From positions 75,792 to 139,791 of the forward strand of contig WLWN01000001.1 in the NCBI GenBank assembly GCA_012103575.1: a stretch of DNA of 64,000 bases, given 5' to 3'. Origin of the DNA: Kiritimatiellia bacterium. Its GTDB lineage: Bacteria; Verrucomicrobiota; Kiritimatiellia; WLWN01. A program made the position numbers and the translations under genes. Shown here in pieces: positions 1,775 to 51,363 of this stretch (positions are counted from its first letter, which is position 1; each line of letters starts with the position of its first letter). The notes under the pieces are model-generated. The model saw only the letters and a list, made by a program, of their open reading frames with translations, was not told the origin of the DNA and did no database searches.

Positions 1775-1902
1775 TCTTCGATCTCCTTACTTTTGTTATT
1801 TATATCTGAGAAATGAATTTGTTTTATATTCGAGTCTATCTCTCTTTTCAAAGGGCACCATGCTACGTCATGCTTTAAAAGAAAAGTCAAAATTTGCAAC
1901 TA

Positions 1903-2432
1903 GAACGCTTCACGATTGAGGTGTCGCGATGTAGCACGAAGAAAACCAGCCGATTACCTCGTCGGGAGAAACCTCTTCGGACGCTTGTGTGATCGCTTCA
2001 GATAGTTCCTGCTGACTGCGGGCTGTAAGGCTGCCCAACCGATTCTTTATCTTGCCCCACATTTTTTCAATGGGGTTGGAATCGGGGCTGTAGGGTGGAA
2101 GGAATCTTACATGGACCCCACATGACTCAATGAGTTCAATGACCTTGGGATTGTGATGGACGTGAAGATTGTCCATGATGACCGGGATGTTTGCCCCCCA
2201 GTTGAGCCAACGCCTTGAGCTGCTTTCCGCTGTAGAGGGCCTGACGATGCCCACGCGGTCGGGGAGCGGTCTGTCCGGTTTCGTTGAAACGAGAGAGCCC
2301 ACGCTGAAACGTTCTAAGATCTACACGATAAGAAGATGCGATATCGGCCTGGGAACCTTTGCCCATTTTGTAGGCATCTATCGCACGCCGCCGGATTTCT
2401 GCTAGCGAGGCATTTTCAATCGTTAAATGCTC
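1903..2432 (-). mobile_element. IS630-family element, internally deleted copy (TA-flanked)
   Basis: Ends GAGCATTTAACGATTGAAAATGCC and CCTCAATCGTGAAGCGTTC match the other copies; flanking TA at 1901-1902 and 2433-2434; transposase N- and C-terminal pieces joined by a ~420-bp deletion. Confidence 0.75.
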
Positions 2433-3216
2433 TAATGTGCGTGCCGCCGCCAAAAGGCGCGCTATTTTTAGTAATGGTACAATTCTCAGTTGAACCACCC
2501 CGCATTCCTCCACCATAAATGTTGGCAATGTTGTCGCTAATGATAGAGTTCCGAACAGGCCCAAAATGCGTACCTCCACCATAATTGGCGACGTTGCTGT
2601 ACAATACACGATTCTCAACAACAGCGTGAGCTGCCGCGCCACCATCAACACCCGCCTGATTACTAACAAGGCTACAGTGTTTCAATATTCCTCCATATGC
2701 GCCACCACCAGCAACATTAGCTCTATTGCCAACAATAAAGCAGTTGGAAATTATGGCACCCGGTTCACACCAAACGCCTCCACCAGAATCTTCTTTAACA
2801 ATATCCCTAAAATTTTGGGTAAACCCATTTGTCAGAGTGAATCCGATCAATTCTGCCCCGTTTATCATATAGGCACAGCGTACGGCATTCGAACCAAGAG
2901 GTCCTTGCCCTTCGATTACGGTAAACGCTGGTCCATTCACACTGCAAACGGTTATGGGTTTGGTAATGGCAATCCGGTTTGTTCCATAAGTGAAAACGGC
3001 AACACCCCCGGTTGAGTAGGTTCCGTTGGTGACCAGGACCGTATCCCCATTGGAAGCCACATCAATGGCCGATTGAATATCGGTAGCCGCAGTGGCCCAA
3101 CTGGTAAAAGGAGTCGTATGACTTCCTGAGAAGGACACATAGTTCGTCGCTCCCCAGATCACGGACGTTAGGCAAAAGAAAAAGATCGGAACTAAATACT
3201 GTTGTTTCTGCATCAT
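2416..3216 (-). CDS. secreted parallel beta-helix repeat protein (Pmp/autotransporter-passenger-like), 3' end interrupted by IS630
   Basis: 266 aa; N-terminal signal peptide, repeated GGG/GGA and N-rich beta-helix motifs; stop codon lies inside IS630 terminus. Confidence 0.5.
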   Translation of the reverse strand: MMQKQQYLVPIFFFCLTSVIWGATNYVSFSGSHTTPFTSWATAATDIQSAIDVASNGDTVLVTNGTYSTGGVAVFTYGTNRIAITKPITVCSVNGPAFTVIEGQGPLGSNAVRCAYMINGAELIGFTLTNGFTQNFRDIVKEDSGGGVWCEPGAIISNCFIVGNRANVAGGGAYGGILKHCSLVSNQAGVDGGAAAHAVVENRVLYSNVANYGGGTHFGPVRNSIISDNIANIYGGGMRGGSTENCTITKNSAPFGGGTHIRAFND

Positions 3217-3344
3217 TGGATCTCCTAGTTTAGTTTTTCACACAAAATTGGTATACTATTTTTGCTTCTATTCATACTAGAGTATTTAACGATTGAAATG
3301 CCTCGCTAGCAGAAGTCCGGCGGCGTGCGATAGATGCCTACAAA

Positions 3345-3707
3345 ATGGGCAAAGGTTCCCAGGCCGATATCGCATCTTCTTATCGTGTAGATCTTAGAAC
3401 GTTTCAGCGTGGGCTCTCTCGTTTCAACGAAACCGGACAGACCGCTCCCCGACCGCGTGGGCATCGCCAGGCCCTCTACAGCGGAAAGCAGCTCAAGGCG
3501 TTGGCTCAACTGGGGGGCAAACATCCCGATGCAACGCTTGAAGAACTCAAGAACATGAGCGGCGTGAAGGGGTCGATCATGGCCGTACAGCGGGCGTTGA
3601 ATCGGTTGGGCTGCCGGTATAAAAGAAACGCTTCACGCCAGCGAGCAAGACCGGGCGGATGTAAATCTCTTGAGAAAGCAGTGGATCCAAGAAGTGGCCA
3701 AACTTGA
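3345..3707 (+). CDS. IS630 transposase, N-terminal HTH part (orfA)
   Basis: 120 aa helix-turn-helix-like region; overlaps orfB by 38 nt suggesting frameshift expression or decay. Confidence 0.7.
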   Translation: MGKGSQADIASSYRVDLRTFQRGLSRFNETGQTAPRPRGHRQALYSGKQLKALAQLGGKHPDATLEELKNMSGVKGSIMAVQRALNRLGCRYKRNASRQRARPGGCKSLEKAVDPRSGQT

Positions 3708-4233
3708 TCCAAGTCGCCTTGTCTTTATTGATGAATCCGGGGCGAAAACGAATATGACTTGTCTGCGGGGCCGGGCGTTGGGCGGGAACAGGCTTTTTGC
3801 CAAAACGCCTCATGGACATTGGTGTACCACCGCCTTGATTTCTTCGGTCCGCCTGGACGGAACAACAGCGGCCATGGAGGGGGAGGGGGCGACAGAGACG
3901 GCTGTTTTTGGAGAATATATTCGCCGGGTTCTTCTCCCGACTCTTTCACCTGAAGACATCGTCATCATGGACAATCTTTGCGTCCATTACAATCCCAGGG
4001 TCATTGAACTCATTGAGTCATGTGGGGCCCATGTAAGATTCCTTCCACCCTACAGCCCCGATTCCAACCCCATTGAAAAAATGTGGGGCAAGATAAAGAA
4101 TCGGTTGGGCAGCCTTGCAGCCCGCAGTCATCAGGAACTATCTGAAGCGCTCACACAAGCGTTCGAAGAGGTTTCTCCCGACGAGGTAATCGGCTGGTTT
4201 TCTTCGTGCTACATCGCGACACCTCAATCGTGA
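3670..4233 (+). CDS. IS630 transposase, DDE catalytic part (orfB)
   Basis: 187 aa; DDE_3-type motif VIMDNLCVH...FLPPYSPDSNPIEKMWGKIK. Confidence 0.8.
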   Translation: MRKQWIQEVAKLDPSRLVFIDESGAKTNMTCLRGRALGGNRLFAKTPHGHWCTTALISSVRLDGTTAAMEGEGATETAVFGEYIRRVLLPTLSPEDIVIMDNLCVHYNPRVIELIESCGAHVRFLPPYSPDSNPIEKMWGKIKNRLGSLAARSHQELSEALTQAFEEVSPDEVIGWFSSCYIATPQS

Positions 4234-4459
4234 AGCGCTCTAATGCCAGGCGCTAAAGGAAGGAACGGCATTCATGTGAGAAAGTTCAAAACAGAGAGAA
4301 ACACGTGGGCACCCTGCAGGAGAGTTCAACGTTTCGCGTGAACACCCTGCACGGTTGCCATGAAGCAGAGCTTTTGATTTTTCCTTTTTTATACGAACAA
4401 TCCCTTTCCTATACCGGCTGCGCCATGAAGCGTGGTTCGCGCAGCGAAGCTCTGCTTCA

Positions 4460-8185: not shown

Positions 8186-8360
8186 GGGTGTTCAAAAAGG
8201 TAGTTGTACTGCGAGTAGGGCTGAACCTGTTCCATCACCAGATAGAAGGACTGCTACGAGTTCTTGTGAGATCCATGCCGCCATCAGTCCCTCATAAATG
8301 TGCAGGCCTTTATTCCTTTATCCAGACTATGGAATGACTTTTAACCCCGTTTTCCTGAGT

Positions 8361-8690
8361 GGTAGAGTAACAATACAAGTGCAAAGGTCCGCAGCATAGT
8401 TCATTCTTTGGGTATCTGACCCCCCCAAAGGAGAACATAGAATGCCACGAACCTACGAACATTTAAACCGTTATGAACGAGAAGTGATAGCCCAGATGCT
8501 AAAAGAAAAATATAGCTTATCTCAAATTGGCCATCGCCTGGGCCGATCCCCCTCGACTATTTGGTGCGAATTTCGCCGTAATCAAGTCCGTGGCCGCTAT
8601 TACCCAAGACACGCAAATGGCCTGGCTCAAAGCCGATTACAGCTAGCTCGAAAGCCTCAAAAAGTGATGGGAGCTAGCAAAGAATAAGTG
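8361..8690 (+). mobile_element. IS30-family element, truncated copy (left end and first 81 codons only)
   Basis: Left end GGTAGAGTAACAATACAAGTGCAAAGG identical to copies at 17149, 32309, 40160; transposase ORF 8442-8687 diverges from the full copy after residue ~80. Confidence 0.7.
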
Positions 8691-8880
8691 GACCTGAATC
8701 CGTCAGCTATCGCTTCGGAAGGCGTTTTGGGGCTCAAAAGTTGAAAATTTTTTCCTTGAGATGCTCGCTTTTGGGCGGATTGGGACCGGCAAGTATCACC
8801 CTGATGAATTTTTTGAGCGTACAGGTCAGATTCACTCTGATTTGACCATTTTGGGGCGTAGGCCTCCTTGGGCAGTCGCC

Positions 8881-10253
8881 TTAGAGTATTGTTAAAGGTG
8901 CACGGAGGGCTATGCGAAGGAATGGGGCAATATCTTGTATCACTTCAAACCAGCAACAACGCTTGCCAAAGTGAAGTTCAATTCGTCCGGCGTGGCGGAC
9001 CAATCGAACCGCGCAATAAACGATATTTTTGAGAACCGTTTTGATTCGCCAGCACGGGATGTTGATTTTTTGCGGGGCAAGCCCAGCCCGTTTGATGACC
9101 TCTTGGCCAAGACCGCGCAATAGGTTGAAGGCCACCATGGCGCATAACAAAATAATCTTATTGGCACAGAGTCTCCCCGAAGGCAATCGCTCAACATCAA
9201 GATCGCTTTTGAGTTCACTGTGGTACTGCTCGCTGGGGCCATGTCCATGATAGAGATCTAGCACCGTCTTGGCACGACAAGAGAGGTTCGTCTACCAGGT
9301 GTTCACCTCAAGTTTAGGAACCAGAAGTTTCTGACCATCGATATCGATGGTGCGTTCAATCACTTCGAAGGCCACCGGGACACAAGGGCGGTTTTGGTCA
9401 CCACCGGGATGGAAATGATCGAAAAAGCCTGTGTAAACGTTCTTGCCTTCACGACTGTCTTGTTTGTCTCCAACTCGGCGTGCAAGGGCCAGCATTTGTT
9501 CAGGACATTCGCGGTGAGGATTTCGCTTTACGATAAAATAATGATCCCCAAAAGCGTCGAAGTTATCGGCCGCAGCGTTGCCACTATCAAGCCGAAGCAA
9601 ACATTTTCCACCTAGGCCCAGGGTTTGGAGCGTTTCAACGCTGCGGGCAATAAACGCGGTCGTTCCCGACTGACAATGTTGTTTACCGGGTCGAAGTTCG
9701 CACTCAAGCATGTGGCCTTGAGTGCCCACATAGGCAAATATCGGGGCGTAACCATCATGGCCCTTATAGGTATAGGAAACGCCTTCTTTCGAAGAGCCTG
9801 AGTGATCCAAAGGGCTCACATCGATATCGACGGGAACAAGATCAAGCCCTTCGACATCTACCTAGCCAAAGGGGCCCGAGGAAAGAAGTTCGGTGTTGAG
9901 TTTGCGTAGCCCCACATGGGTTCTGGCTGGGGGCAGGTCGTCGGAACGACATCGGAACACCGGCTCAGAAGCTACCTTTTTAACTCCCCTTTTAAAGTCC
10001 AAAGGCATTCATAAAAATCTCATCACCCCGGTACAGGTCGATATCATTGAAAATCGGTTCGACCGTTGCAAAGTAAGCCGATCTGGGTAAGGAGGATCTC
10101 CCGATCAGAGATCGCATCGGAGCGGCGTGGTTGAAAATTGGAGGGAAGAATCTGTTGAGCATGATCCTCAAGCAGCAGGCCGCAAAGATGATTTCCGCTT
10201 GTGCTGTTGAGTTCGCCCTTGCCAGTCTTTATTTTATATTGTTTCATATACAC
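8881..10253 (-). pseudogene. IS1380-family transposase, disrupted (in-frame TAG at 9292-9294 plus further breaks)
   Basis: ORFs 9292-9819 and 8881-9264 are in the same frame separated by TAG; motifs GHDGYAPIFAY...LRPGKQHCQSG...RLDSG and C-terminal HSELKSD...LPSG...AFNLLR. Confidence 0.55.
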
Positions 10254-10327
10254 ACCTGTTGGGGTGGGGTTGTTTGTTTGAATACGGGTATGCTCCCCGC
10301 TTTAGCCCAACAGGTAATGAAAAATCG

Positions 10328-10702
10328 TCAGATTTTGTCTGACGGATTCAGGAGATACCCTTTAGTGAGAGTTAGGTCTGAGATAACAAAATGACTCGCA
10401 TAGCTCTTGAAAATCCGGCTACTATTATCTCCACTAATGGTCAGATTTGTTCGACCTGGCCCAATAATGGTTAAGTCCTGGTTAATATCAATTTGACCGG
10501 TAGTAAGCGTGATGGTTGCACCGTCGAGAATATTTGCAAAAACAATGGTGTCTCCAGGTGCAGCTATTCCAACGGTGTCTCGCAATGAGCCTGGACCATT
10601 ATCCATTGAATTGAGCACAGTCAACGTTGCTCCCTCACTGGATACTACCAAAAAAATTAAGAACAGGATTAAAAAAGCTACGTAACGGAATGTATTGTTT
10701 AT
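10328..10702 (-). pseudogene. N-terminal fragment of a large beta-helix surface protein (signal peptide + GSLRD...TIVF...ITL...LTISG start)
   Basis: ORF reads straight out of the MITE at 10703; only ~100 aa of beta-helix before stop; no ATG start. Confidence 0.4.
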
Positions 10703-10865
10703 CCTGGATCCGTCAGTTAAACGCGGTTTTCTGCACGAACCATTTGGGCCAAAAGGAATTACAAAAAAGCCTCGACGCACCCAGCGGGTGCGCCTGCGTT
10801 TTTTTGCAACCTTTTGCCTCCAAAGCATTCGCACAGAAATCCCACGTTTAACTGACGGATCCAGG
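10703..10865 (+). mobile_element. MITE-1 copy 1 (163 bp, 21-bp perfect TIR CCTGGATCCGTCAGTTAAACG)
   Basis: Near-identical to copies at 15947-16109, 36061-36223 (inverted) and 51184-51338 (left TIR truncated). Confidence 0.75.
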
Positions 10866-12255
10866 GTTCAATATCACCTGGCACACCATCATTATCTGTG
10901 TCAGTAGACACGTCATAAACACGGGCAAACCACGTATAGGCTCCTGATAATGGATTTTCTCCAATATCAGATAGTGATGAACTCAAAACAGCTCGGTAAT
11001 AACCAGGCCCAAGATTTGTACTAAAACTTTGCAAGGCTACATTAAAATCATTTTCATAGGTAAATTACGCTTCCTGTCACAACCACATCATCCACAGTAC
11101 TATGAATCCCATCTGGACCCGCCTCAAAAATGGCAAAGGAACTGATATCTAATGTTGATGCATCCATAGGCTCACTGAATGTAGCTGAAAAGACAGAAAG
11201 ATCTTTGAGCAACGACCCGTTCTTAGGTGTCACCGCTTTTACCTGGGGTGAGGTCGCATCAAGTAGAAGTGTTACAACAATGTTACTACTCCACGTTGCA
11301 TTTCCTCCTGTATCACTGGCACGTGTTTGAATTGAAAATGTGGACTGCTCGGTTAATCGAGGGGTTATGAAATGATATTCAAACGGGAAGTTTCCATCGG
11401 TAGGGGCTTTGATTCCATCAATATAAAACTCAACATTACGAATTTGGACATCATCATTCACCTCAACGTTAATGCGGACCCATTTCCCTTCTTCAGCTTG
11501 GGGAGGATTTAAGGAAAAGTTGGCTGACAACGTAGCAGACGGAGGATTTCCTGCCGTATCCGCAGATAAGTAATTGATGACCTGCAGACCGGCGCTGTGA
11601 TCGGCTACATAGGCTTGGCCATTATATATGGAGACCGCACGGGCAATCCCTGGTGTTTGGTGTTCGGTGATAGTTGAAGGCATTTACATTACTCGGGTTA
11701 CTGACATTGTATAAAGAAATGTTGTGAGCGCCATCCAATGTACTATTAGGACTCACTGCAGCAATACCCAACCCTGAACCATTCACGACCATGTGTTTCC
11801 AACCAAACTGCGAGGCTGATAAGTTATCAACAGGGGATCAGCAGGATCACTGACATCAAGCGTATTATACCCTCTACGATATATTGTGTAGGCAATGTCA
11901 TTTCCGACAAACAAACGCATTCGCCCACTGCCTGAACTCGGTGTACCCGGTGAAGAAACCGAGCCAAGGATTTGCATAGACCCCTTTTAGTATTCTAGAA
12001 TATGAAAAGCCCTTAAAGCAAGGACATATAAGTAATTTCCTGAAAAAACCACGTCATGGACCTCGTAAAGGAAAGAGTATGTTTCAAGAACCTCACCACT
12101 CCCTAAATCAACTTCACATACTTTGCTATTAAAACCATTGGCAATCCCCACAAAGGCGATCCCTCCTGCGGCAGCAACAGCCCGTGTAAAACCTATAAAG
12201 TTGACTTGATGGGTAATAGAGGCCAACGCTGGATCAGTAATGTCAATGATAGCTA
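10866..12255 (-). pseudogene. LVIVD-repeat/beta-propeller-like surface protein, fragmented (4 ORF pieces), 5' cut by IS630, 3' interrupted by MITE-1
   Basis: ORF fragments 10759-11034, 11054-11683, 11783-11977, 11987-12226 in different frames; repeated YVADHSAGLQVIN / NYLYVLA type motifs. Confidence 0.4.
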
Positions 12256-12863
12256 GAGCGCTTCACGATTGAGGTGTCGTGATGTAGCACGAAGAAAACC
12301 AGCCGATTACCTCGTCGGGAGAAAAACCCGGCGAATACATTCTCCAAAAACAGCCGTCTCTGTCGCCCCCTCCCCCTCCATGGCCGCTGTTGTTCCGTCC
12401 AGGCGGACCGAAGAAATCAAGGTGGTGGTACACCAATGTCCATAAGGCGTTTTGGCAAAAAGCCTGTTCCCGCCCAACGCCCGGCCCCGCAGACGAGTCA
12501 TATTCGTTTTCGCCCCGGATTCATCAATAAAGACAAGGCGACTTGGATCAAGTTTGGCCACCTCTTGGATCCACTGCTTTCTCAAGAGATTTACATCCGC
12601 CCGGTAACGCCTTGAGCTGCTTTCCGCTGTAGAGGGCCTGACGATGCCCACGCGGTCGGGGAGCGGTCTGTCCGGTTTCGTTGAAACGAGAGAGCCCACG
12701 CTGAAACGTTCTAAGATCTACACGATAAGAAGATGCGATATCGGCCTGGGAACCTTTGCCCATTTTGTAGGCATCTATCGCACGCCGCCGGATTTCTGCT
12801 GTTGCTATACTCGTGTCATGGAGTATAGATCTTCTAGAGAGGCATTTCAATCGTTAGATGCTC
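12256..12863 (-). mobile_element. IS630-family element, internally deleted copy (TA-flanked)
   Basis: Same termini as other copies; TA at 12254-12255 and 12864-12865; DDE region deleted at junction GGGAGAAAAACCCGG. Confidence 0.75.
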
Positions 12864-12867
12864 TAAT

Positions 12868-14566
12868 GTGTCTGCTCAAGGTGTCGACTTTACCACATTG
12901 TTCGATCCTGTTACGTGGAGCTTAACGACGGGTTATTACGCAATACGAGCCAGAAGTGAAGATTCATTTGGGCAATCCGATAATTTCCAGCCAGACATCA
13001 GCGGTGTAGGCGCTGATACCTCTGGTAAGACCACAGCAGAATGGCATAGAGATTTGGGTGTAATTAGAGTAATAGAAATTATTCTCCCTCCGGTAGACTT
13101 GGACATTGATTCTGACAATAACAATAGATTAGGCATTCCGGATAGAAGTACTACAGAGGATGAGGGTGAAGACGTTTTGGGGAATTCCGCTCAACCTGGA
13201 AAATTTATAGAGGTAAGCACAGAAGACGCAGACAATGACAATATACCTGACTTTGCAGATGGATTTAACCTCGATGGAATGGGTGGAAATGATGACGATA
13301 CCTCTGTTGGTGTAGGGTTTATACCTTTAGTCTTTGAATTGGCAGGCGTCACAAATCTAGAAGTTGCCGAAAATAAGGCTTACATATAACGCATCCGATC
13401 CATTGGGGGTTGCTGTGTCGGGGACATCCACGAATCGAACCTATACACCTGGGGCAGGTGGCTTGCGGATATGGACCGAAGATGGTGGGGTCGTTCGGAA
13501 TGGAAATCAGGTACATGTCGGTGGAAATTTTATTTCTTCGAGTGTTTATGATGCGACCAATTTGGGTTTCTCAATGAACAACCTTATTGTTACATCCTAT
13601 GTCGAAGGGATATGGGGAAGCGCATCTGTAGCGGATCAACACATTCTAGTTGAGGTAGATCCTGATGGGTCAGCTGGAGCAGGGTTCGTGCATAGTGATG
13701 CGGTTCGGGTTACTCTGCTTGAGTTAACCTTTTCTAGCGATGAGACAGGGAATCTATATCTACCTGCATTTAACGGCTCGACTAATGTGGCAAGGTTAGA
13801 TGAATTCAGGTTTTTAGTGGGGGAAAACCGCGCGATACTGGGTAAAGTGTCCGGGAGTTTGGATAGGAGTTTTACCTTTGAAGTTGTGGGAGATAGTATT
13901 CCGGCTATTCCGCCCGTGCCCGCTTTGGGTAATTTAGCAAATAGTGGGTTTTCTTTTACACCTAATGCCACGTTAGGGAATCGACCTCTCGGAACAACAG
14001 CAATTCCCGCTGTACGCTATACCGTTAGTATTAAAAACTCACTAGGAACGGTTGTGGTTGACAAGACTATATCCCAAGATCTGATTGACCGAGTACGGCA
14101 AGAATATATAGATCGTTTTATTCATCACGGTACTGGTTTTACAGCAGGGAGTATAGGGTTGGTTTCTCATGCCCCTTCTCGCGATGAGGTTAAGCGTGCG
14201 CCATCTATACAAGTGGGTGGACCTGGACCTATTGGAAACTGTAGGGATTGGCCGAATCCGAATTATACAGAATCGGGAATAGGCATTGTGTGGGATCAAG
14301 GGTCTGTTGATCTTATTAACAATATTCGGTTAAACATGGGTCCTGATACGGTCTGCCTTCATAGCGGGCATAGGAGTCCGTCTCATAATCAGCGAGTAAA
14401 CGGTGCGACTAATAGTGACCACCAATGGGGACGGGCCGCAGACATGTCTTATGAAAATACGGTGGTAGTGGGTACCGTTGCAGCAGCTTTATTTCACTTG
14501 CGTCTCTATCGGGTTGCTCTTGGAGAGACAACGGGTCAGATTCTGCTTGAGCTGAATTCAGCCTAA
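12868..14566 (+). CDS. secreted acidic protein with C-terminal peptidase M15 (VanY/zinc D-Ala-D-Ala carboxypeptidase-like) domain; 5' end abuts IS630, internal frameshift near 13364-13389
   Basis: Two overlapping ORFs (12868-13389, 13364-14566); motif HSGHRSPSHNQRVNGATNSDHQWGRAADM resembles the M15 SGYRSPxxN...SxHxxGxAADi signature; D-rich possible Ca-binding stretch. Confidence 0.45.
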
Positions 14567-14994
14567 CGACTACCCAACCGATGGGATCCACCTCCAACCA
14601 ATCATACGTTTGTTGCGATATCAGGAAACGCCAATTGGCAAGTGGAAGTCGAAGACAGTAATCAAGATGGTCTGCCGGATCAAGTAAACGCGGTAATGGG
14701 CACGATTCCAAATGCTACAGATTTAGTTTGGAATGGGGGAGGGACAAGTAATCCTCCGCTTAGGGTTTTAGATGGAAATAATAATAACCAAATCGATGTT
14801 GGGGAAACGTTAGTGATCATCTATAACGGGACACATACGCTTTTCGAACGATTTTCTGGAGCTAGCCATATCCATGCAGAAACCAATTAAGAAAAAAGGA
14901 AAGACTTTATTGACGGAGTGTTTAATTCATGCGAAGCAGAGTGATGAGTCAAGAAGGCCTTAGACTATGAAAAATAGATCATGGGAGAAAGAGA

Positions 14995-15290
14995 CAGCGC
15001 CCCTCCAGGGCGCAGGATCTGTTCTCATGACCTTTCCTGGGGTTAAAACCCCAGGCTATATACCCTCACTGCGTTGCAGTGAAACAGGATTGAAGAGGTT
15101 GGAATTATGGATGAGATTGAAACTCTAGGTGGCATGTCCACACTGCATTGCAGTGAAGAAAGGTCGGATTTTGTATGGCGACAAATATGATGATTCCAAA
15201 GATGTCCCAACGGGACAAGGTGATACAGCCTGGGGTTTTGACCCCAGGAACGAGGGAACAACCCTTCCATTGCGCCCTGAAGGGGCGCTG
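14995..15290. repeat. MITE-2 copy 1 (hairpin-rich ~296-bp element with palindromic ends GCGCCCCTCCAGGGCGC / GCGCCCTGAAGGGGCGC)
   Basis: Second copy at 15615-15896; internal perfect palindromes CCTGGGGTTAAAACCCCAGG. Confidence 0.6.
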
Positions 15291-15348
15291 TTGAGGAGAG
15301 GAAAATGAGGAAAATAATGTTTAATTTAAATTTTACAGAAGGAGAAAA

Positions 15349-15594
15349 ATGAAAATAAAAGAATCCATAGCTGAAATCCAAGCCGTCGGACGTCGGATAT
15401 CCACAGAGTATGGACCTGGTATAAAAGCCTTGCTTAATCACTGCAAGGAATCCGCAAAGTCCTATAAAGATCAATTATTGCTCCATTCTAAACGACAGAT
15501 CCACAGAGTGGCCGAAACTTTGGCTGAGTACACAGCCGAGAAAGAGGATGAAACAGGGCAGGTTAAGAAGGCATTAGAAAATGAGAAGAAATAA
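15349..15594 (+). CDS. small hypothetical protein (81 aa) between the two MITE-2 copies
   Basis: ATG preceded by GGAGAAAA Shine-Dalgarno-like sequence; charged K/E-rich; no recognisable family. Confidence 0.3.
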   Translation: MKIKESIAEIQAVGRRISTEYGPGIKALLNHCKESAKSYKDQLLLHSKRQIHRVAETLAEYTAEKEDETGQVKKALENEKK

Positions 15595-15614
15595 ATCATG
15601 GGTGAAGAAGGTAC

Positions 15615-15896
15615 GGCACCCCTTCAGGGCGCAAGATCTTTTTTCATTACGTCTCCTGGGGTTGAAACCCCAGGCTATGCGTTGCAGTGAAAGAGGATGG
15701 AAGATGTTGGAATTATAGACGAGGTTGGACAGGTTGGCATGTTCACACATCATTGCAGTGAAGAGAGATCGGATTTTATAGGGTGACGAATATGATGACT
15801 CAAAAAGATGTCCCAATGGGACAAGGTGATACAGCCTGGGGTTTCAACCCCAGGAACCAGAAAACAATCATCCCATTGCGCCCTGAAGGGGCGCTG
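15615..15896. repeat. MITE-2 copy 2
   Basis: Near-identical architecture to 14995-15290 with scattered substitutions. Confidence 0.6.
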
Positions 15897-15946
15897 TCTA
15901 ATGAAAAAGAGTAAGAGCATGAATAAAGAACGTATAAATATAATAG

Positions 15947-16109
15947 CCTGGATCCGTCAGTTAAACGCGGTTTTCTGCACGAACCATTTGGGCCAAAAGG
16001 AATTACAAAAGAGCCTCGACGCACCCAGCAGGTGCGCCTGCGTTTTTTTGCAACCTTTTGCCTCCAAAGCATTCGCACAGAAATCCCACGTTTAACTGAC
16101 GGATCCAGG
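15947..16109 (+). mobile_element. MITE-1 copy 2
   Basis: Perfect TIRs; same internal sequence as copy 1. Confidence 0.75.
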
Positions 16110-16170
16110 AATAGGAAAACGTTCCGCCCCAAATCTTTTTTCTGCTATCTTCTTCGTATTCTGTGGTTTA

Positions 16171-17148
16171 ATGATCTTTCTCTTGTATGCGACAACCTCG
16201 ACAGCTAATCCTCTGGTCACGGTTACATCAAAAGTCGTGGGGACTCAACTGGAAGTTTCTCCCGTGCAAATGGCGGTGCCAAAAGGAATCGCCGGGTCTG
16301 TAAATGTGAACATTGTAGCAGGACTTGGAGGTGAAAATGAAACATCCCTTGCCCTAGCCGATGGCGTTCATATTGAGGCAACCCTACGGGGTCCTTCTTT
16401 TGCGGCCCGACAAACCTTTGGTCGCCCAAATGAACCCCTGTTGTTCCCGCCATTACCGCTAGTCGGCGATTATCAACTCGATGCTATTAAGCTGGTCGAT
16501 TCTGCAACCGGTAAAATCCGCCTCGAAGGTTCCCCCTCAAGCATCCCTATTTTTGTATTCAAAGAAGTGCTGGTTACCCGGGTAACTTCACGGCCGTTAA
16601 CCCTCGACGAGATTCAGGAAAAAGGGATTTTGATCGATGAATCCAATTTTCGGGCGGTGGAATTTGAAGTGGGGTTTGTGATCGACGGAAAAACGGTTCC
16701 GGTCAAGTTACCGGTGATTGCCCCCACGTTTAAAGAAGCCACAGAAATTATTCCTCAAGCAGAAATCGATGAAAAGATGGCGGCAGCCAATGTGATGAAT
16801 CAGCAACTTTCTCAGACAGCGGAGTTACCGCCGGAACTGGAAGCCGCAGGTCTAAACATTGAAATTCAAGGCATCAATTTTCAGTTTGTGGATACAACTT
16901 TAGAATTAGGTCTTGCTCTACAACCTCCTCCGATTCCTGCATTGATGGTGATTCCGGGGAATATTGGTTTTATCAATCAGTTTTTTAGTGTTCAGATTTT
17001 TATGGAAAATGGGGTGCCGGGAGGTTCGGGACTTAACGTGCATAATATGCAGGCCGAACTACTCCTGCCGGTGGGATCGGATTTGGTAGCTGGAACGTAT
17101 GAGGTTTCCGGCGATGATCCATTGCGTTTTGCGCGGACAGGAACGAAT
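16171..17148 (+). CDS. hypothetical protein fragment, 3' end runs into IS30
   Basis: ORF 16171-17187 continues into the IS30 left end at 17149; no recognisable motifs. Confidence 0.35.
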
Positions 17149-18194
17149 GGTAGAGTAACAATACAAGTGCAAAGGTCCGCAGCATAGTTCATTCTTTGGG
17201 TATCTGACCCCCCCCCAAAGGAGAACATAGAATGCCACGAACCTACGAACATTTAAACCGTTATGAACGAGAAGTGATAGCCCAGATGCTAAAAGAAAAA
17301 TATAGCTTATCTCAAATTGGCCGTCGCCTGGGCCGATCCCCCTCGACTATTTGGCGCGAATTTCGCCGTAATCGAGTCCGTGGCCGCTATTACCCAAGAC
17401 CCGCAAATGGCCTGGCTCAAAGCCGATTACAGCTAGCTCGAAAGCCTCAAAAAGTGATGGGAGCTAGCAAAGAACAAGTGGAGACTCTCCTGGCGAATAT
17501 TGGTCTCCAGAACAGATTGAAGGTCGAGGAAAGCTAGAAGGTGACCCTCCCATCAGTCGAATGATGATCTACCGCTACTTGTACAGTCCAAGAGGGGCTG
17601 GCTACCGAAAATACCTGCGTGGCCCCGGAAAGAAAAAACGAGCGACTCGGAAAAGCCATTCACGTATACACAACCAAACGATGATTGACCAACGCCCCGA
17701 AGAGGGTGAAAGTCGCAAGGTGGCAGGCCATTGGGAAGGTGACACTATTCAGGGCCAAACGAGAAAAGAGGCCTGTGTAGTCACTCTAGTAGATCGAGCG
17801 ACTCGATATCTCATCGCCGATCTTTTACCTCGATGCAATGCCGAATCGGTCAACCGTTCCGTACCTCAGTTCGCTGATTCAGGGCTCCCCTTTAAAACGG
17901 TGACTGTAGATAATGGCATGGAGTTTGCCAGCCATGCTAAACTACAGAAAAAAATAGCAACCCCCATTTTCTTTGCTGAAGGGAGAAACCCTTGGCAAAG
18001 AGGGAGCAACGAAAATACGAATGGTTTGCTTCGCCAGTTTTTCCCGAAGAAAACCGACTTTGCTGCCCACAGCTCCGCTCAGTTGAGCTGGGCTGTGGAG
18101 TTACTGAATAATAGGCCGAGAAAATGCTTAGAATATAGAACGCCCAAAGAAATGATGGACAGCTTCGGTTTTGCACTTGTAAGTTGAGTCTGCA
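17149..18194 (+). mobile_element. IS30-family element (type 1), transposase frameshifted
   Basis: Transposase split into ORFs 17232-17537 and 17561-18187 by a 1-nt deletion (GAATATTGG versus GAAGTATTGG in the intact copy). Confidence 0.8.
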
Positions 18195-32308: not shown

Positions 32309-33357
32309 GGTAGAGTAACAATACAAATGCAAAGGTCCGCAGCATAGTTCATTCTTTGGGTATCTGACCCCCCCCAAAGGAGAACATAGAATGCCACGAA
32401 CCTACGAACATTTAAACCGTTATGAACGAGAAGTGATAGCCCAGATGCTAAAAGAAAAATATAGCTTATCTCAAATTGGCCGTCACCTGGGCCGATCCCC
32501 CTCGACTATTTGGCGCGAATTTCGCCGTAATCGAGTCCGTGGCCGCTATTACCCAAGACCCGCAAATGGCCTGGCTCAAAGCCGATTACAGCTAGCTCGA
32601 AAGCCTCAAAAAGTGATGGGAGCTAGCAAAGAACAAGTGGAGACTCTCCTGGCGAAGTATTGGTCTCCAGAACAGATTGAAGGTCGAAGAAAGCTAGAAG
32701 GTGACCCTCCCATCAGTCGAATGACGATCTACCGCTACTTGTACAGTCCAAGAGGGGCTGGCTACCGAAAATACCTGCGTGGCCCCGGAAAGAAAAAACG
32801 AGCGACTCGGAAAAGCCATTCACGTATACACAACCAAACGATGATTGACCAACGCCCCGAAGAGGGTGAAAGCCGCAAGGTGGCAGGCCATTGGGAAGGT
32901 GACACTATTCAGGGCCAAACGAGAAAAGAGGCCTGTGTAGTCACTCTAGTAGATCGAGCGACTCGATATCTCATCGCCGATCTTTTACCTCGATGCAATG
33001 CCGAATCGGTCAACCGTTCCGTACCTCAGTTCGCTGATTCAGGGCTCCCCTGTAAAACGGTGACTGTAGATAATGGCATGGAGTTTGCCAGCCATGCTAA
33101 ACTACAGAAAAAAATAGCAACCCCCATTTTCTTTGCTGAAGGGAGAAACCCTTGGCAAAGAGGGAGCAACGAAAACACGAATGGTTTGCTTCGCCAGTTT
33201 TTCCCGAAGAAAACCGACTTTGCTGCCCACAGCTCCGCTCAGTTGAGCTGGGCTGTAGAGTTACTGAATAATAGACCGAGAAAATGCTTAGAATATAGAA
33301 CGCCCAAAGAAATGATGGACAGCTTCGGTTTTGCACTTGTAAGTCTCCACCTCTGCA
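32309..33357 (+). mobile_element. IS30-family element (type 1), apparently intact
   Basis: Left end GGTAGAGTAACAATACAA..., right end ...TTTTGCACTTGTAAGT...TGCA; single 323-aa transposase ORF. Confidence 0.85.
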
Positions 33358-33362
33358 AATGA
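32391..33362 (+). CDS. IS30-family transposase (323 aa, intact)
   Basis: HTH N-terminus; DDE block GHWEGDTI...TVTVDNGMEF...NPWQRGSNENTNGLLRQF. Confidence 0.85.
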   Translation: MPRTYEHLNRYEREVIAQMLKEKYSLSQIGRHLGRSPSTIWREFRRNRVRGRYYPRPANGLAQSRLQLARKPQKVMGASKEQVETLLAKYWSPEQIEGRRKLEGDPPISRMTIYRYLYSPRGAGYRKYLRGPGKKKRATRKSHSRIHNQTMIDQRPEEGESRKVAGHWEGDTIQGQTRKEACVVTLVDRATRYLIADLLPRCNAESVNRSVPQFADSGLPCKTVTVDNGMEFASHAKLQKKIATPIFFAEGRNPWQRGSNENTNGLLRQFFPKKTDFAAHSSAQLSWAVELLNNRPRKCLEYRTPKEMMDSFGFALVSLHLCK

Positions 33363-36043: not shown

Positions 36044-36060
36044 CCCGTTTTAGTATATTA

Positions 36061-36223
36061 CCTGGATCCGTTAGTTAGACGTGGGATTTCTGTGCGAATG
36101 CTTTGGAGGCAAAAGGTTGCAAAAAAACGCAGGCGCACCCGCTGGGTGTGTCGAGGCTTTTTTGTAATTCCTTTTGGCCCAAATGGTCCGTGCAGAAAAC
36201 CGCGTTTAACTGACGGATCCAGG
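36061..36223 (-). mobile_element. MITE-1 copy 3 (inverted orientation)
   Basis: Perfect TIRs; located 18 bp upstream of tadA start. Confidence 0.75.
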
Positions 36224-36306
36224 TATTATCTCTATCTAGGATTCCTTATCCGATATTGACATTTAATGTATTTGATTTTTATGCGTAACGCTATACACTC
36301 CTGCCC

Positions 36307-39089: not shown

Positions 39090-39164
39090 GCGGGGCGTAG
39101 CTCAGCCTGGTAGAGCGCTACGTTCGGGACGTAGAAGCCGTGGGTTCAAATCCCGCCGCCCCGA
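39090..39164 (+). tRNA. tRNA-Pro (anticodon CGG)
   Basis: Hand-folded cloverleaf: acceptor CGGGGCG/CGCCCCG, anticodon loop TTCGGGA, T-arm GTGGG-TTCAAAT-CCCGC. Confidence 0.8.
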
Positions 39165-39212
39165 CCCAACAAACCACGGAGTTGTAAACGGCATGGATGA
39201 AACGGAGAATTG

Positions 39213-39919: not shown

Positions 39920-39996
<77 letters not shown>

Positions 39997-40159: not shown

Positions 40160-41206
40160 GGTAGAGTAACAATACAAGTGCAAAGGTCCGCAGCATAGTT
40201 CATTCTTTGGGTATCTGCCCCCCCCCAAAGGAGAACATAGAATGCCACGAACCTACGAACATTTAAACCGTTATGAACGAGAAGTGATAGCCCAGATGCT
40301 AAAAGAAAAATATAGCTTATCTCAAATTGGCCGTCGCCTGGGCCGATCCCCCTCGACTATTTGGCGCGAATTTCGCCGTAATCGAGTCTGTGGCCGCTAT
40401 TACCCAAGATCCGCAAATGGCCTGGCTCAAAGCCGATTACAGCTAGCTCGAAAGCCTCAAAAAGTGATGGGAGCTAGCAAAGAACAAGTGGAGACTCTCC
40501 TGGCGAAGTATTGGTCTCCAGAACAGATTGAAGGTCGAAGAAAGCTAGAAGGTGACCCCTCCCATCAGTCGAATGACGATCTACCGCTACTTGTACAGTC
40601 CAAGAGGGGCTGGCTACCGAAAATACCTGCGTGGCCCCGGAAAGAAAAAACGAGCGACTCGGAAAAGCCATTCACGTATACACAACCAAACGATGATTGA
40701 CCAACGCCCCGAAGAGGGTGAAAGTCGCAAGGTGGCAGGCCATTGGGAAGGTGACACTATTCAGGGCCAAACGAGAAAAGAGGCCTGTGTAGTCACTCTA
40801 GTAGATCGAGCGACTCAATATCTCATCGCCGATCTTTTACCTCGATGCAATGCCGAATCGGTCAACCGTTCCGTACCTCAGTTCGCTGATTCAGGGCTCC
40901 CCTGTAAAACGGTGACTGTAGATAATGGCATGGAGTTTGCCAGCCATGCTAAACTACAGAAAAAAATAGCAACCCCCATTTTCTTTGCTGAAGGGAGAAA
41001 CCCTTGGCAAAGAGGGAGCAACGAAAACACGAATGGTTTGCTTCGCCAGTTTTTCCCGAAGAAAACCGACTTTGCTGCCCACAGCTCCGCTCAGTTGAGC
41101 TGGGCTGTAGAGTTACTGAATAATAGACCGAGAAAATGCTTAGAATATAGAACGCCCAAAGAAATGATGGACAGCTTCGGTTTTGCACTTGTAAGTTGAG
41201 TCTGCA
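40160..41206 (+). mobile_element. IS30-family element (type 1), transposase frameshifted
   Basis: Transposase split into ORFs 40242-40700 and 40552-41199 by a 1-nt insertion in a C-run (GACCCCTCCC versus GACCCTCCC). Confidence 0.8.
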
Positions 41207-45435: not shown

Positions 45436-46031
45436 CTAACTTAAGCATGATTTCCTTTTGTTTAACCAATGGCGATTTCTGTGAGCAGGCACAATCATTT
45501 CGTGCCTTGGTTTAGTCAGCAAATGATAGTTTTTTCGTCGTCTCTTTACAGCTCGAGGTTCACTTCTGCCAGGGCGTTGCCGCAAGGGTCTTTGGGTCAT
45601 GCTTTCATAGAGCATAAAAATCAAACCGAAACGTTCCTTCCGACTCATTCTCGCTTGATTTAGATTCGGCTCCCAACTGCGCAAGGCTTGAAGCGAAGTT
45701 TTGAAGCTAATTTGCCGAACGGGCAAACCAGCCTCTTCAGCCGCCTCATACATGATCCGGCGCATGCAGTTGTAGGCAATAAAATACATCACCATCTCTT
45801 TTCGGATCATTTCCGGGCTCTTGCATCGTAAGATATCCATACCCAGCGTTGTTTTTATATCACGGAAAAAGAGTTCAACATCCCAACGCCGAAAATACAC
45901 ATCGGCTAAATCTTTGGCAGGGTACTTTTCTGCATCTAATAATGTGGTGACCAGATAGATCACTTTAGATCGAAAGCCGGGCTGATTGATCGTTATTTTA
46001 ACTTGGCGTAGGAACAAACTAGAGCGCTTCA
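45436..46031 (-). pseudogene. IS4-family (DDE_Tnp_1) transposase, C-terminal fragment; 5' part removed by IS630 insertion
   Basis: YFRRWDVELFFRDIKTTLGMD (Y-R-E-K signature) ; ORF 45436-46056 runs into IS630 end. Confidence 0.6.
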
Positions 46032-49883: not shown

Positions 49884-49958
49884 TCATCCTAAACACTATC
49901 TCCTTTTTATATTTAAAAAATGACAATGGAAAGATTTAAAGATTGTGTCAACTAAAAT

Positions 49959-51183
49959 GAGAATTGTAATATTAAATGCCCAAAAGAAGATATTGTAAAA
50001 CAGGAGTGTTCCATGCCGAAATCTTCTAGATTTAAAAACTCGACAGAAGACAAAAAAAGGAGAAAGACATGGAACAAATCAAGAGTAGTATTCATCCCCG
50101 AAAAGGCAAGCATTTGACACAGAAAGAACGGATCATGATTGAAACAATGCTCAAAAACCCAGGACGTCCTTTGGAGATAGCTACTAGCTATCTGGGAAGG
50201 CATCGTCGAACCATAGAGCGCGAAATCAAACGTGGGGAGGTAGAGCATTTCGATACAGAGCCGCGAAAGAAGAAAGCATACAGCAGTGATCGAGCCCAGG
50301 AACTTCATGATCTAAATGCGACGGCCAAGGGACCTGAGCTTAAGCTTGGAAAGCATCATGAAACGGCTGTGTTTATCAGCGAGCACATTCTTGCTCACAA
50401 GCGCTCACCCGATGTGGTTGCTCCTTTGCTTAAACAAGAGCAGAGACCTGCAGCGGTGAGTACAAAAACGCTGTATACCTATATTGACCAAGGTCTCATC
50501 CCGGGGGTGAGCAACGAGTCCCTATGGGAAAAACGAAAACGGATAAAACGAAAAAGACGTGCTATTAAGCGGGTTAAAAAGCAACATGCCCGAAGGACCA
50601 GTATCGAAAAACGACCTAAAACCGTAGAAAAACGCGAGGAATCTGGGCACTGGGAATTGGATTTGATCGTCGGCGGAAAAGGAACTTCAAAACCGGTTTT
50701 AATGACGTTAGTAGAAAGAAAGACCCGAATGCTAAGGGTGAGAAAACTTTCGGATAAAACACAGGCATCGGTTCTGCAGGCCCTCAAAGCGATCGAAAGA
50801 TCGATGGGAGTTGGCCCATTCAGATCGATGTTCAAGTCGATTACAGCCGATAACGGGAGCGAGTTTCTCGACGTGGAGCAGATGGAACGTTCCGGATTTA
50901 GCAAAAAGAGACGTGTTAAACTCTATTATGCTCACCCGTATTCTTCCTGGGAACGAGGCTCCAACGAAAATGCCAACCGTATGGTTTGTCGTTTCGTCGC
51001 CAAAGGAGACAACATCGGAAAATATACCATCGACCGTATTGGTGAGATTGAAAAGCGGATTAACAACTATCCTCGCAAGATCCTAGAATACAAACCCGCA
51101 CAGGAGTGTTTCGATTTGGAGATCGCCGCATGAACAGAAGCTCTCAGGTCCATTTTTTGCGGCATTTAATTTTACAATCCACC
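49959..51183 (+). mobile_element. IS30-family element (type 2), copy B
   Basis: Same termini as copy A; right end abuts a MITE-1 copy lacking its first ~8 TIR nucleotides. Confidence 0.75.
50069..51133 (+). CDS. IS30-family transposase (354 aa)
   Basis: Near-identical to 42692-43756 product (few substitutions). Confidence 0.8.
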   Translation: MEQIKSSIHPRKGKHLTQKERIMIETMLKNPGRPLEIATSYLGRHRRTIEREIKRGEVEHFDTEPRKKKAYSSDRAQELHDLNATAKGPELKLGKHHETAVFISEHILAHKRSPDVVAPLLKQEQRPAAVSTKTLYTYIDQGLIPGVSNESLWEKRKRIKRKRRAIKRVKKQHARRTSIEKRPKTVEKREESGHWELDLIVGGKGTSKPVLMTLVERKTRMLRVRKLSDKTQASVLQALKAIERSMGVGPFRSMFKSITADNGSEFLDVEQMERSGFSKKRRVKLYYAHPYSSWERGSNENANRMVCRFVAKGDNIGKYTIDRIGEIEKRINNYPRKILEYKPAQECFDLEIAA

Positions 51184-51338
51184 CGTCAGTTAAACGCGGT
51201 TTTCTGCATGAACCATTTGGGCCAAAAGGAATTACAAAAAAACCTCGACGCACCCAGTGGGTGCGCCTGCGTTTTTTTGCAACCTTTTGCCTCCAAAGCA
51301 TTCGCACAGAAATCCCACGTTTAACTGACGGATCCAGG
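51184..51338 (+). mobile_element. MITE-1 copy 4 (left TIR truncated at IS junction)
   Basis: Begins CGTCAGTTAAACG directly after IS30 type 2 end; right TIR intact; ends 25 bp upstream of serS ATG. Confidence 0.65.
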
Positions 51339-51363
51339 AAATAGAAAGATGGGGAGCCACCAT

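What the first reader, a model, noticed from the sequence alone, without database searches (positions are those of the whole stretch)
10703..10865. MITE-1: 163-bp miniature inverted-repeat element with 21-bp perfect TIRs, four copies, no matching autonomous IS in the window
Copies at 10703-10865, 15947-16109, 36061-36223 (inverted) and 51184-51338 are near-identical and bounded by perfect terminal inverted repeats CCTGGATCCGTCAGTTAAACG / CGTTTAACTGACGGATCCAGG. The TIR does not match the ends of the IS630, IS30 or second IS30-type elements present here, so the autonomous partner is elsewhere or lost. Copy 1 interrupts two surface-protein genes; copy 4 directly abuts an IS30 type 2 end and lacks the first ~8 nt of its left TIR, indicating nested insertion. 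Six-frame ORFs inside the element are artefacts of its palindromic structure.
Basis: seen in the sequence. Interest (0 to 1): 0.55.

Follow-up and report, generated by a model that had tools for sequence, protein, structure and literature searches.

The report
IS1380-type MITE in a sponge symbiont

Summary
There are three complete 163-bp copies and one 5'-truncated copy at the stated coordinates, with a 21-bp TIR (7 TIR hits against 0 expected).

The element is a genuine MITE. In Mycale hentscheli sponge metagenome contigs from the same organism I found 36 more complete copies at distinct sites. Of 39 complete copies, 31 have a perfect 5-bp AT-rich target-site duplication, with a C|WWWWW|G target. 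Copies are on average 98% identical to their consensus.

A 1,660-bp IS1380-family element at 8693-10352 ends in CCTGAATCCGTCAG, which matches the MITE tip CCTGGATCCGTCAG at 13 of 14 positions. Other copies of the same IS match at 14 of 14. IS1380-family elements make 5-bp duplications.

Every resident IS copy I could examine is defective. They share a 13-bp duplication that causes a frameshift and carry private stop codons, so the MITE family may now be immobile.

The whole element folds into a long hairpin with a terminator-like centre on both strands.

The window very probably comes from "Ca. Patea custodiens" (Kiritimatiellota), the pateamine producer. This is a new member of a known kind, of low to moderate interest.

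The parts
10703..10865 (+). MITE copy 1, 163 bp. It is identical to the consensus of 36 aligned copies and has perfect 21-bp TIRs. It has no TSD (flanks TTTAT / GTTCA) and sits at a junction between two truncated surface-protein-like genes.
15947..16109 (+). MITE copy 2, with perfect TIRs. Its 5-bp TSD AATAG lies at 15942-15946 and 16110-16114. It is 62 nt upstream of ORF 16171-17187.
36061..36223 (-). MITE copy 3, inverted. One TIR has 2 mismatches. Its 5-bp TSD TATTA lies at 36056-36060 and 36224-36228. It sits in the divergent intergenic region between tadA (-) and lipA (+).
51184..51338 (+). MITE copy 4. It lacks element nt 1-8 and abuts the end of the IS30-type element. Its right end is 25 nt upstream of the serS start codon at 51364.
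8693..10352 (-). Defective IS1380-family insertion sequence, 1,660 bp, and the likely autonomous-partner lineage. Both tips read CCTGAATCCGTCAG. The transposase is broken by two frameshifts (one a shared 13-bp tandem duplication) and two in-frame stops. It has no TSD (GTGGA / AGATA).
10774..10794 (.). Central GC-rich stem-loop of the MITE (GACGCACCCAGCGGGTGCGCC) flanked by an A-run and a T-run. It is terminator-like on both strands, and the same feature is present in copies 2-4.
49958..51183 (+). IS30-type element (HTH_38 + rve transposase) that truncates MITE copy 4. An inverted twin lies at 42642-43867.

Best explanation
MITE-1 is a non-autonomous DNA transposon (a MITE). In the past it was cut and pasted, or copied, by the DDE transposase of a co-resident IS1380-family insertion sequence.

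Shown: the element is 163 bp and non-coding. It is bounded by 21-bp inverted repeats whose outer 14 bp (CCTGRATCCGTCAG) are the same as the tips of the 1,660-bp IS1380-family element of this genome. Insertions are flanked by 5-bp duplications of an AT-rich target (C|WWWWW|G). It is present at 39 or more complete sites plus about a dozen truncated ones, and copies are about 98% identical to a consensus. The whole element is an imperfect palindrome that would fold into a long hairpin, with a terminator-like stem-loop at its centre in both orientations.

Inferred: the transposase binds the shared 14-bp tips and makes 5-bp staggered cuts at the target, as in other IS1380-family members. The family expanded in a recent burst during the IS proliferation of this sponge symbiont. 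Because every resident IS copy examined carries the same frameshifting 13-bp duplication plus private nonsense mutations, the family is probably no longer mobile. Copies without TSDs (copy 1 among them) are products of later recombination between copies. Any effect on neighbouring genes, such as insulation by the bidirectional terminator or promoter displacement upstream of serS, tadA and lipA, is untested.
For: TIRs and copies in the window: 7 TIR hits against 0 expected; the copies align edge to edge.

There are 38 complete copies at distinct sites, 30 with perfect 5-bp TSDs and 3 more matching at 4 of 5. One further copy has TSD TTAAA.

Target: the five TSD positions are 83-93% AT, with C at -1 in 15 of 29 sites and G just after the TSD in 13 of 29.

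The IS: ORFs at 8881-9819 hit Pfam PF13701. The reconstructed protein is 76-78% identical to intact 440-aa proteins, which score 312.7 bits on NCBIfam NF033539 'IS1380 family transposase' against a cut-off of 180.

Shared tips: CCTGRATCCGTYAG allowing 1 mismatch hits only the two IS ends and the seven MITE ends, 9 hits against 0.09 expected. IS copies of the same lineage carry the tip CCTGGATCC (L007, L036), and one MITE carries CCTGAATCC (L035). Intact relatives are 1,658 bp with TIR CCTGAATCCGTTAGATAA.

Family properties: IS1247 (IS1380 family) is 1,672 bp with a 5-bp DR (PMC3281130). ISEcp1 makes 5-bp duplications (PMC2887853).

Structure: folding gives -86.6 and -107.2 kcal/mol, z -11.8 and -14.6. 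Terminator-like hairpins are found on both strands in each copy.
Against: Beyond the 14-bp tips, the MITE interior shows no significant similarity to the IS ends (p 0.04-0.5 against shuffles), so it is not a simple deletion derivative of this IS.

Nucleotides 15-21 of the MITE TIR (TTAAACG) differ from both IS ends.

No intact transposase of this lineage was seen in the organism. The 15 listed members of a 16-member cluster on the 3.1-Mb contig carry only partial transposase sequence: fragments of 127-286 aa, plus one 551-aa fusion of a C-terminal fragment to an IS630-type transposase. The window copy, L005 and L028 share the 13-bp duplication.

No empty or occupied polymorphism was found. All assemblies of the four sites I could test (copies 2, 3 and 4, and the L001 site) are occupied.

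A second IS1380-like element carrying the full 21-bp TIR elsewhere in the 3.1-Mb genome cannot be excluded, because the complete genome could not be scanned.
Confidence: 0.8

Rival explanations
1. The element is a MITE, but it was mobilised by a different, unseen transposon whose ends carry the complete 21-bp TIR. This could be a second IS1380-subgroup element or another family that makes 5-bp duplications, such as Tn3. On this reading the resident defective IS shares the 14-bp tip only through common ancestry.
For: TIR nt 15-21 and the interior do not match the resident IS. All resident IS copies examined are defective. Tn3-family elements also give 5-bp AT-rich duplications (PMC2887853).
Against: No such element appears in about 430 kb of this organism's DNA held here (window plus loci). 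tblastn with an IS1380 transposase finds only the one lineage. The tip is CC..., not the GGGG-type 38-bp IR of Tn3. The 14 of 14 tip identity and the A/G polymorphism at position 5, shared by IS and MITE, argue for a direct relationship.
Confidence: 0.12
2. The element is a domesticated structural repeat. It would function mainly as a bidirectional transcription terminator or insulator, or as a structured RNA, and be retained by selection near genes, with transposition being only its historical origin.
For: A terminator-like GC hairpin with A/T runs is present on both strands in every copy. The hairpin is very stable and strand-asymmetric, -107 versus -87 kcal/mol. Copies sit directly upstream of serS and between tadA and lipA. 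Insertion sites are less often inside long open frames than random positions, median 151 versus 284 codons.
Against: Palindromic MITEs fold this way by construction. AT-rich target preference alone would place copies in intergenic or promoter DNA. Truncated and decayed copies exist. There is no Rfam match. The copies are too similar (98%) to test covariation, and there are no expression data.
Confidence: 0.06
3. The element is not mobile at all, and is instead a conserved repeat spread by duplication or recombination (REP/BIME-like or part of a larger repeat).
For: Eight of 39 complete copies lack a perfect TSD, including copy 1. No occupancy polymorphism was seen.
Against: Thirty-one different perfect 5-bp TSDs occur at unrelated sites. 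Homology stops exactly at the TIR tips, and the flanks are unique. The target consensus is symmetric.
Confidence: 0.02

Closest known systems
IS1380-family insertion sequences (IS1380, IS1247, ISEcp1, ISAzo40)
   Same: The resident 1,660-bp element has one DDE transposase (NF033539 / PF13701), short IRs beginning CC and a family-typical length. The MITE shares its 14-bp tips and produces the 5-bp TSD reported for IS1247 and ISEcp1.
   Different: MITE-1 encodes nothing, is one tenth the size, has a longer (21-bp) perfect TIR, and has an interior unrelated to the IS. The resident IS transposase is only 35-45% identical to plasmid-borne named members.
Bacterial MITEs with identified IS partners, such as the IS630-, IS5- and IS4-related MITEs and the MaeMITEs of Microcystis
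   Same: All are small, have TIRs and a fixed-length TSD, occur in high copy number, lie mostly in intergenic positions, fold as hairpins, and depend on a transposase supplied in trans. The Microcystis genome paper lists MITE families alongside an IS1380-family IS, without linking them.
   Different: The partner family here is IS1380. I found no paper in the searchable library that describes an IS1380-derived MITE, which is not proof that none exists.
Tn3-derived inverted-repeat miniature elements (TIMEs)
   Same: Both have a 5-bp AT-rich TSD, are non-coding, and are mobilised in trans (PMC4133298 listed; Tn3 5-bp repeats).
   Different: TIMEs carry roughly 38-bp Tn3-type IRs. MITE-1 tips are CCTGG... 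and match an IS1380-type IS. No Tn3 transposase was seen.
Correia elements (NEMIS) of Neisseria
   Same: Both are elements of about 100-160 bp with long TIRs, lie next to genes, fold into long hairpins and can carry transcription signals (from my own knowledge).
   Different: Correia elements duplicate TA and have no known transposase. MITE-1 duplicates 5 bp and has an identifiable partner lineage.

Membership tests
MITE (prokaryotic miniature inverted-repeat transposable element) | Small size (below about 600 bp) and no coding capacity | tested here: met
   The element is 163 bp. The only overlapping ORFs read in from the flanks or lie wholly within the palindrome. There is no Rfam hit.
MITE (prokaryotic miniature inverted-repeat transposable element) | Terminal inverted repeats | tested here: met
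   A 21-bp perfect TIR is present in copies 1 and 2, and homology ends at the TIR tips.
MITE (prokaryotic miniature inverted-repeat transposable element) | Target-site duplication of fixed length | tested here: met
   Thirty-one of 39 complete copies have a perfect 5-bp TSD and 3 more match at 4 of 5. All TSD sequences differ and are AT-rich.
MITE (prokaryotic miniature inverted-repeat transposable element) | Many dispersed, near-identical copies | tested here: met
   There are 39 complete copies and about 12 truncated or contig-end copies at distinct sites. Mean identity to the consensus is 98%.
MITE (prokaryotic miniature inverted-repeat transposable element) | Insertion polymorphism between strains (direct evidence of mobility) | tested here: inconclusive
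   All assemblies of the four sites examined are occupied and 99.9-100% identical, so they represent the same population. L049 shows a different left flank for copy 2, but this may be an assembly chimera.
IS1380-family-dependent non-autonomous element | Ends matching those of an IS1380-family IS in the same genome | tested here: met
   The tips match at 13 of 14 positions for the window IS and at 14 of 14 for the L007 and L036 copies of the same lineage. The 14-mer occurs only at IS and MITE ends, 9 hits against 0.09 expected.
IS1380-family-dependent non-autonomous element | TSD length typical of the family (5 bp for IS1247 and ISEcp1) | tested here: met
IS1380-family-dependent non-autonomous element | Interior derived from the IS by internal deletion | tested here: not met
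   Local alignments beyond nt 14 are no better than shuffles, p 0.04-0.5. Only a weak shared TTTGGG(N)CAAAAG motif appears about 35-45 nt from the tips.
IS1380-family-dependent non-autonomous element | Functional transposase available in trans, and demonstrated mobilisation | not testable with these tools
   Every resident copy seen is defective. Mobilisation requires an experiment.
Tn3-derived TIME | Tn3-type IR of about 38 bp | tested here: not met
   The TIR is 21 bp and begins CCTGGATCC. The 38-bp Tn3 IR is described in PMC2887853.
REP/BIME-type palindromic repeats | Short palindromes of about 20-40 bp without a TSD, associated with a RAYT transposase | tested here: not met
   The element is 163 bp with 5-bp TSDs. 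I did not search for a RAYT.

The most novel reading that the evidence does not exclude
MITE-1 would be the first described MITE family tied to an IS1380-type transposase. Beyond being a fossil, its copies would have been co-opted as bidirectional terminators or insulators, or as strand-specific structured RNAs, that now organise transcription of essential genes (serS, tadA, lipA) in the IS-ridden genome of the pateamine-producing sponge symbiont.
Probability: 0.1. Interest if true: 0.5.

Novelty: new member of a known kind. Interest (0 to 1): 0.3.

Why it matters
The finding adds a well-defined MITE family (consensus sequence, TSD length, target motif and likely transposase lineage) to a genome of pharmacological interest: the probable pateamine producer "Ca. 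Patea custodiens". Neither of the two genome papers mentions insertion sequences or MITEs in this genome.

It links MITEs to the IS1380 family, which is best known through ISEcp1 and antibiotic-resistance mobilisation.

MITE-1 and several IS families together make up roughly one sixth of this window and coincide with broken genes. This is what one expects of a symbiont undergoing IS expansion and rearrangement.

There is a practical consequence. The repeat breaks short-read assemblies, and many of the metagenome contigs end inside a MITE or the IS. In one such case a contig (L001) ending in a MITE is deposited in the wrong MAG.

None of this changes current understanding of how MITEs work.

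Tried and rejected
(1) Autonomous element with the full 21-bp TIR. I found none in the window, in 38 metagenome loci, or in later loci. Lone TIR hits proved to be truncated, internally deleted or decayed MITEs.

(2) Whole-collection scans. The viral-contig scan returned none. The plasmid collection gave no match.

(3) Access to the source genome. Copy number in the complete genome could therefore not be counted.

(4) Presence/absence polymorphism. All assemblies found for copies 2, 3 and 4 and for the L001 site are occupied.

(5) Cross-phylum sharing. The only genome hit was labelled Gammaproteobacteria, but its M16 peptidase is 100% identical to a protein on the 3.1-Mb Kiritimatiellae contig, so the contig is mis-binned.

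(6) Homology of the MITE interior to the IS. It is not significant.

(7) Sigma-70 promoter consensus inside the MITE. The scans of the copy 3 and copy 4 regions found none in the element. The only match overlapping a copy is a 9-of-12 hybrid at copy 2, with a -35-like hexamer in the TIR and a -10-like hexamer in the flank.

(8) Composite IS + MITE transposon spanning 8693-10865. Its flanks, GTGGA and GTTCA, do not form a TSD.

(9) Programmed +1 frameshift at the shared lesion of the IS. The site is a 13-bp tandem duplication relative to intact relatives and has no recognisable slippery motif, so I treat it as a mutation.

(10) Rfam. No family matches, even at E<=1.

Full report
**1. The observation**

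The 21-mer CCTGGATCCGTCAGTTAAACG, allowing up to 3 mismatches, occurs seven times in the window against 0.00 expected. Three inverted pairs bound 163-bp units at 10703-10865, 15947-16109 and 36061-36223. One lone right-hand TIR lies at 51338.

Aligning the four copies with 30-nt flanks shows near-identity that begins and ends exactly at CCTGG...CCAGG, with unrelated flanks. Copy 3 is inverted and has two substitutions in one TIR. Copy 4 starts at element nt 9, immediately after the last base (51183) of a 1,226-bp IS30-type element whose inverted twin is at 42642-43867.

**2. Source organism**

The 127-aa ORF at 8881-9264(-) is identical to NKB22871.1/NKB25515.1 of "MAG: Kiritimatiellae bacterium". 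That protein is carried on a single contig of 3,096,896 bp.

Contigs from the Mycale hentscheli sponge metagenomes are 99.9-100% identical to stretches of the window. JAAHTG and JAAHTH are the WGS accessions of Rust et al. 2020, PMC7196800. The WLWD-WLWI contigs are other assemblies of the same organism.

Storey et al. 2020 (PMC7157528) report the pateamine producer "Candidatus Patea custodiens" (Kiritimatiellaeota) on a single 3.09-Mb contig. The window is therefore very probably from that genome, by inference from contig size and taxonomy. Neither paper discusses IS elements or MITEs in it.

**3. It is a transposable element**

In these loci plus the window I found 38 complete copies, 36 of them exactly 163 bp, each at a different site with unique flanks.

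- Thirty copies carry a perfect 5-bp direct repeat immediately outside the TIRs, with a different sequence at each site.
- Three more match at 4 of 5 positions.
- A 39th copy (L053/L054) has TSD TTAAA.

In the window, copy 2 has AATAG and copy 3 has TATTA. Copy 1 has none.

The five duplicated positions are 83-93% A/T, in a genome of about 45% GC. The base before the duplication is C in 15 of 29 sites, and the base after is G in 13 of 29. This gives a symmetric C|WWWWW|G target.

Copies average 98% identity to their consensus, and that consensus is identical to window copy 1. Truncated, internally deleted and older decayed copies also exist.

This pattern excludes a non-mobile conserved repeat.

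**4.

Between 8693 and 10352, only 350 bp from copy 1, lies a 1,660-bp element with CCTGAATCCGTCAG at both ends. Its minus-strand ORF fragments hit Pfam PF13701.

A reconstructed protein is 76-78% identical over 99% of its length to intact 440-aa proteins from other metagenomes. Those proteins score 312.7 bits on NCBIfam NF033539 "IS1380 family transposase", against a cut-off of 180.

The degenerate 14-mer CCTGRATCCGTYAG, allowing 1 mismatch, occurs in the window only at the two IS ends and the seven MITE ends: 9 hits against 0.09 expected.

In other contigs of this organism:
- the same IS lineage (98.7% nt identity) has the tip CCTGGATCCGTCAG, identical to the MITE tip (L007, L036);
- one MITE has the A variant (L035).

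Many metagenome contigs end inside this IS, which shows that it is multi-copy. Intact relatives are 1,658 bp with an 18-bp TIR, CCTGAATCCGTTAGATAA.

Published IS1380-family members match the size and TSD. IS1247 is 1,672 bp with a 5-bp DR (PMC3281130). ISEcp1 makes 5-bp duplications (PMC2887853).

The most economical reading is that MITE-1 was mobilised in trans by this IS1380-family transposase acting on the shared 14-bp tips.

**5. Limits of that reading**

Beyond nt 14 the MITE and the IS ends are not significantly similar, so MITE-1 is not a plain deletion derivative of this IS.

Every IS copy that I could inspect is defective.
- Relative to an intact relative, the window copy and L005 share a 13-bp tandem duplication (GGACTTAAAAAGG / GGAGTTAAAAAGG) that shifts the frame near residue 84.
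- The 5'-truncated L028 copy begins inside that duplication.
- Each copy has private stops or indels.
- The 15 listed members of the 16-member protein cluster on the 3.1-Mb contig carry only partial transposase sequence. They are fragments of 127-286 aa, plus one 551-aa fusion to an IS630-type transposase.

Either a functional copy exists that I could not see, or the IS and the MITE are both recently extinct.

I could not demonstrate occupancy polymorphism. All assemblies of four sites are occupied. One short contig (L049) gives copy 2 a different left flank, but it may be chimeric.

**6. Structure and context**

The whole element is an imperfect palindrome.
- As RNA it folds into one long hairpin of -86.6 kcal/mol on the plus strand of copy 1 (z -11.8).
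- On the minus strand the value is -107.2 kcal/mol (z -14.6).

The centre is a GC-rich stem-loop between an A-run and a T-run. The simple scan scores it as terminator-like on both strands in every copy. Apart from a 9-of-12 hybrid match at the left end of copy 2, no sigma-70-type promoter consensus is found in the element. There is no Rfam match, even at E<=1.

Positions of the window copies:
- Copy 4 ends 25 nt upstream of serS.
- Copy 3 lies between the divergent tadA and lipA genes.
- Copy 2 lies 62 nt upstream of an unannotated 338-aa ORF.

Restored insertion sites are less often inside long open frames than random positions, median 151 versus 284 codons. That fits either AT-rich target choice or purifying selection.

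Functional effects on neighbouring genes are possible but untested.

**7. Copies 1 and 4**

Copy 1 lacks a TSD (TTTAT versus GTTCA).
- On its right is the open 3' part of a frameshifted Ig-domain gene (Big_7/Big_5).
- On its left is the start-codon-less signal-peptide end of a beta-helix-like gene fragment. The only family hit for that fragment is a weak NosD-like one.
- That fragment is in turn cut by the IS1380 element, which itself lacks a TSD and interrupts a partial IS30 copy.

This 2.5-kb stretch is a patchwork of junctions. It is best explained by recombination between dispersed repeat copies, not by a simple insertion.

For copy 4, the missing 8 nt are not on the other side of the IS30-type element. 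The IS insertion was therefore followed by deletion or rearrangement.

**8. Distribution**

The only hit in the species-representative genome collection (L001) belongs to a MAG labelled Gammaproteobacteria. However, its M16 peptidase is 100% identical to a protein on the Kiritimatiellae 3.1-Mb contig, and the nearest other homologues are from Kiritimatiellae, Lentisphaerae and Verrucomicrobia. The contig is mis-binned.

All evidence for MITE-1 therefore comes from one symbiont population. There were no matches among viral contigs or plasmids.

**9. Comparison and verdict**

MITE-1 meets every structural criterion of a bacterial MITE. By tips and TSD length it is tied to the IS1380 family. It fails the test of being an internal-deletion derivative. 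It is not a Tn3-type TIME, a Correia element or a REP.

I found no paper describing an IS1380-derived MITE in the searchable library. That makes the partner assignment mildly new, but the biology is standard.

It is a new member of a known kind, interest about 0.3.

Noticed in passing
window 8693-10352; L005 9374-9796; L028 about 1900-3202: Independent copies of the resident IS1380-family element share the same frameshifting 13-bp tandem duplication (GGACTTAAAAAGG/GGAGTTAAAAAGG) near transposase residue 84. A 5'-truncated copy (L028) starts inside it and is fused in frame to a host ORF. Either the IS spread after it was already defective, or the lesion was homogenised by gene conversion.
   Followed up: partly
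window 1898-4242, 8360-8690, 12253-12870, 17150-18190, 32309-33362, 40160-41200, 42642-43867, 46017-46872, 49958-51183: The window is crowded with IS copies. These are four IS30-type copies (one truncated by the IS1380 element), two inverted IS30-type-2 copies bracketing a 6.1-kb segment, and four IS630-type fragments. Together with the IS1380 element and the MITEs they make up roughly one sixth of the 64 kb.
   Followed up: partly
window 14989-15900: A unit of about 606-619 bp is tandemly duplicated at 83-90% identity, immediately upstream of MITE copy 2. It is packed with short GC-rich palindromes: CCTGGGGTTNNAACCCCAGG four times (0 expected), plus GCGCCCTGAAGGGGCGC and GTCCCAACGGGAC. There is no Rfam hit at gathering score, and its nature is unknown.
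   Followed up: partly
window 47655-48795: A 384-bp tandem repeat, 3 copies at 82% matches, lies inside minus-strand ORFs (47451-48092, 48481-49125). It is probably a repeat-domain protein gene.
   Followed up: no
L001 (JAALKB010000137.1, 'Gammaproteobacteria bacterium MH1_Bin6'): This public MAG contig is mis-binned. It encodes an M16 peptidase 100% identical to one on the 3.1-Mb Kiritimatiellae contig, and it ends inside a MITE-1 copy.
   Followed up: yes
L019 8876-9038 and L028 10184-10346: Two unrelated MITE insertions have flanks TCAGA/TCTGA and TCTGA/TCAGA. These are either TSDs with a central mismatch or 5-nt inverted extensions of the TIR. The same near-palindromic target occurs twice.
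   Followed up: no
window 10703-10865 (both strands): The hairpin is about 20 kcal/mol more stable on the minus strand of copy 1 than on the plus strand. Five of six transition differences between the arms become G-U pairs on that strand. The sample is too small to be significant (about p = 0.1).
   Followed up: partly
L049 1-450 (JAAHTG010024432.1): In this assembly MITE copy 2 has a different left flank, with no TSD and an IS1380 end 203 nt upstream. The MITE sequence is a mosaic of copy-2 and consensus variants. It is either a structural variant or an assembly chimera formed through the repeat.
   Followed up: partly
window 51184-51364: The essential gene serS has only 25 nt between its start codon and a MITE, which is itself preceded by an IS30-type element. 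No sigma-70-like promoter is predicted between the MITE's terminator-like centre and the start codon, so how serS is transcribed is unclear.
   Followed up: partly
window 39091-39166 and 39920-39996: Two tRNA-Pro genes (CGG and TGG anticodons) lie in inverted orientation, 78% complementary, flanking a 151-aa minus-strand ORF.
   Followed up: no
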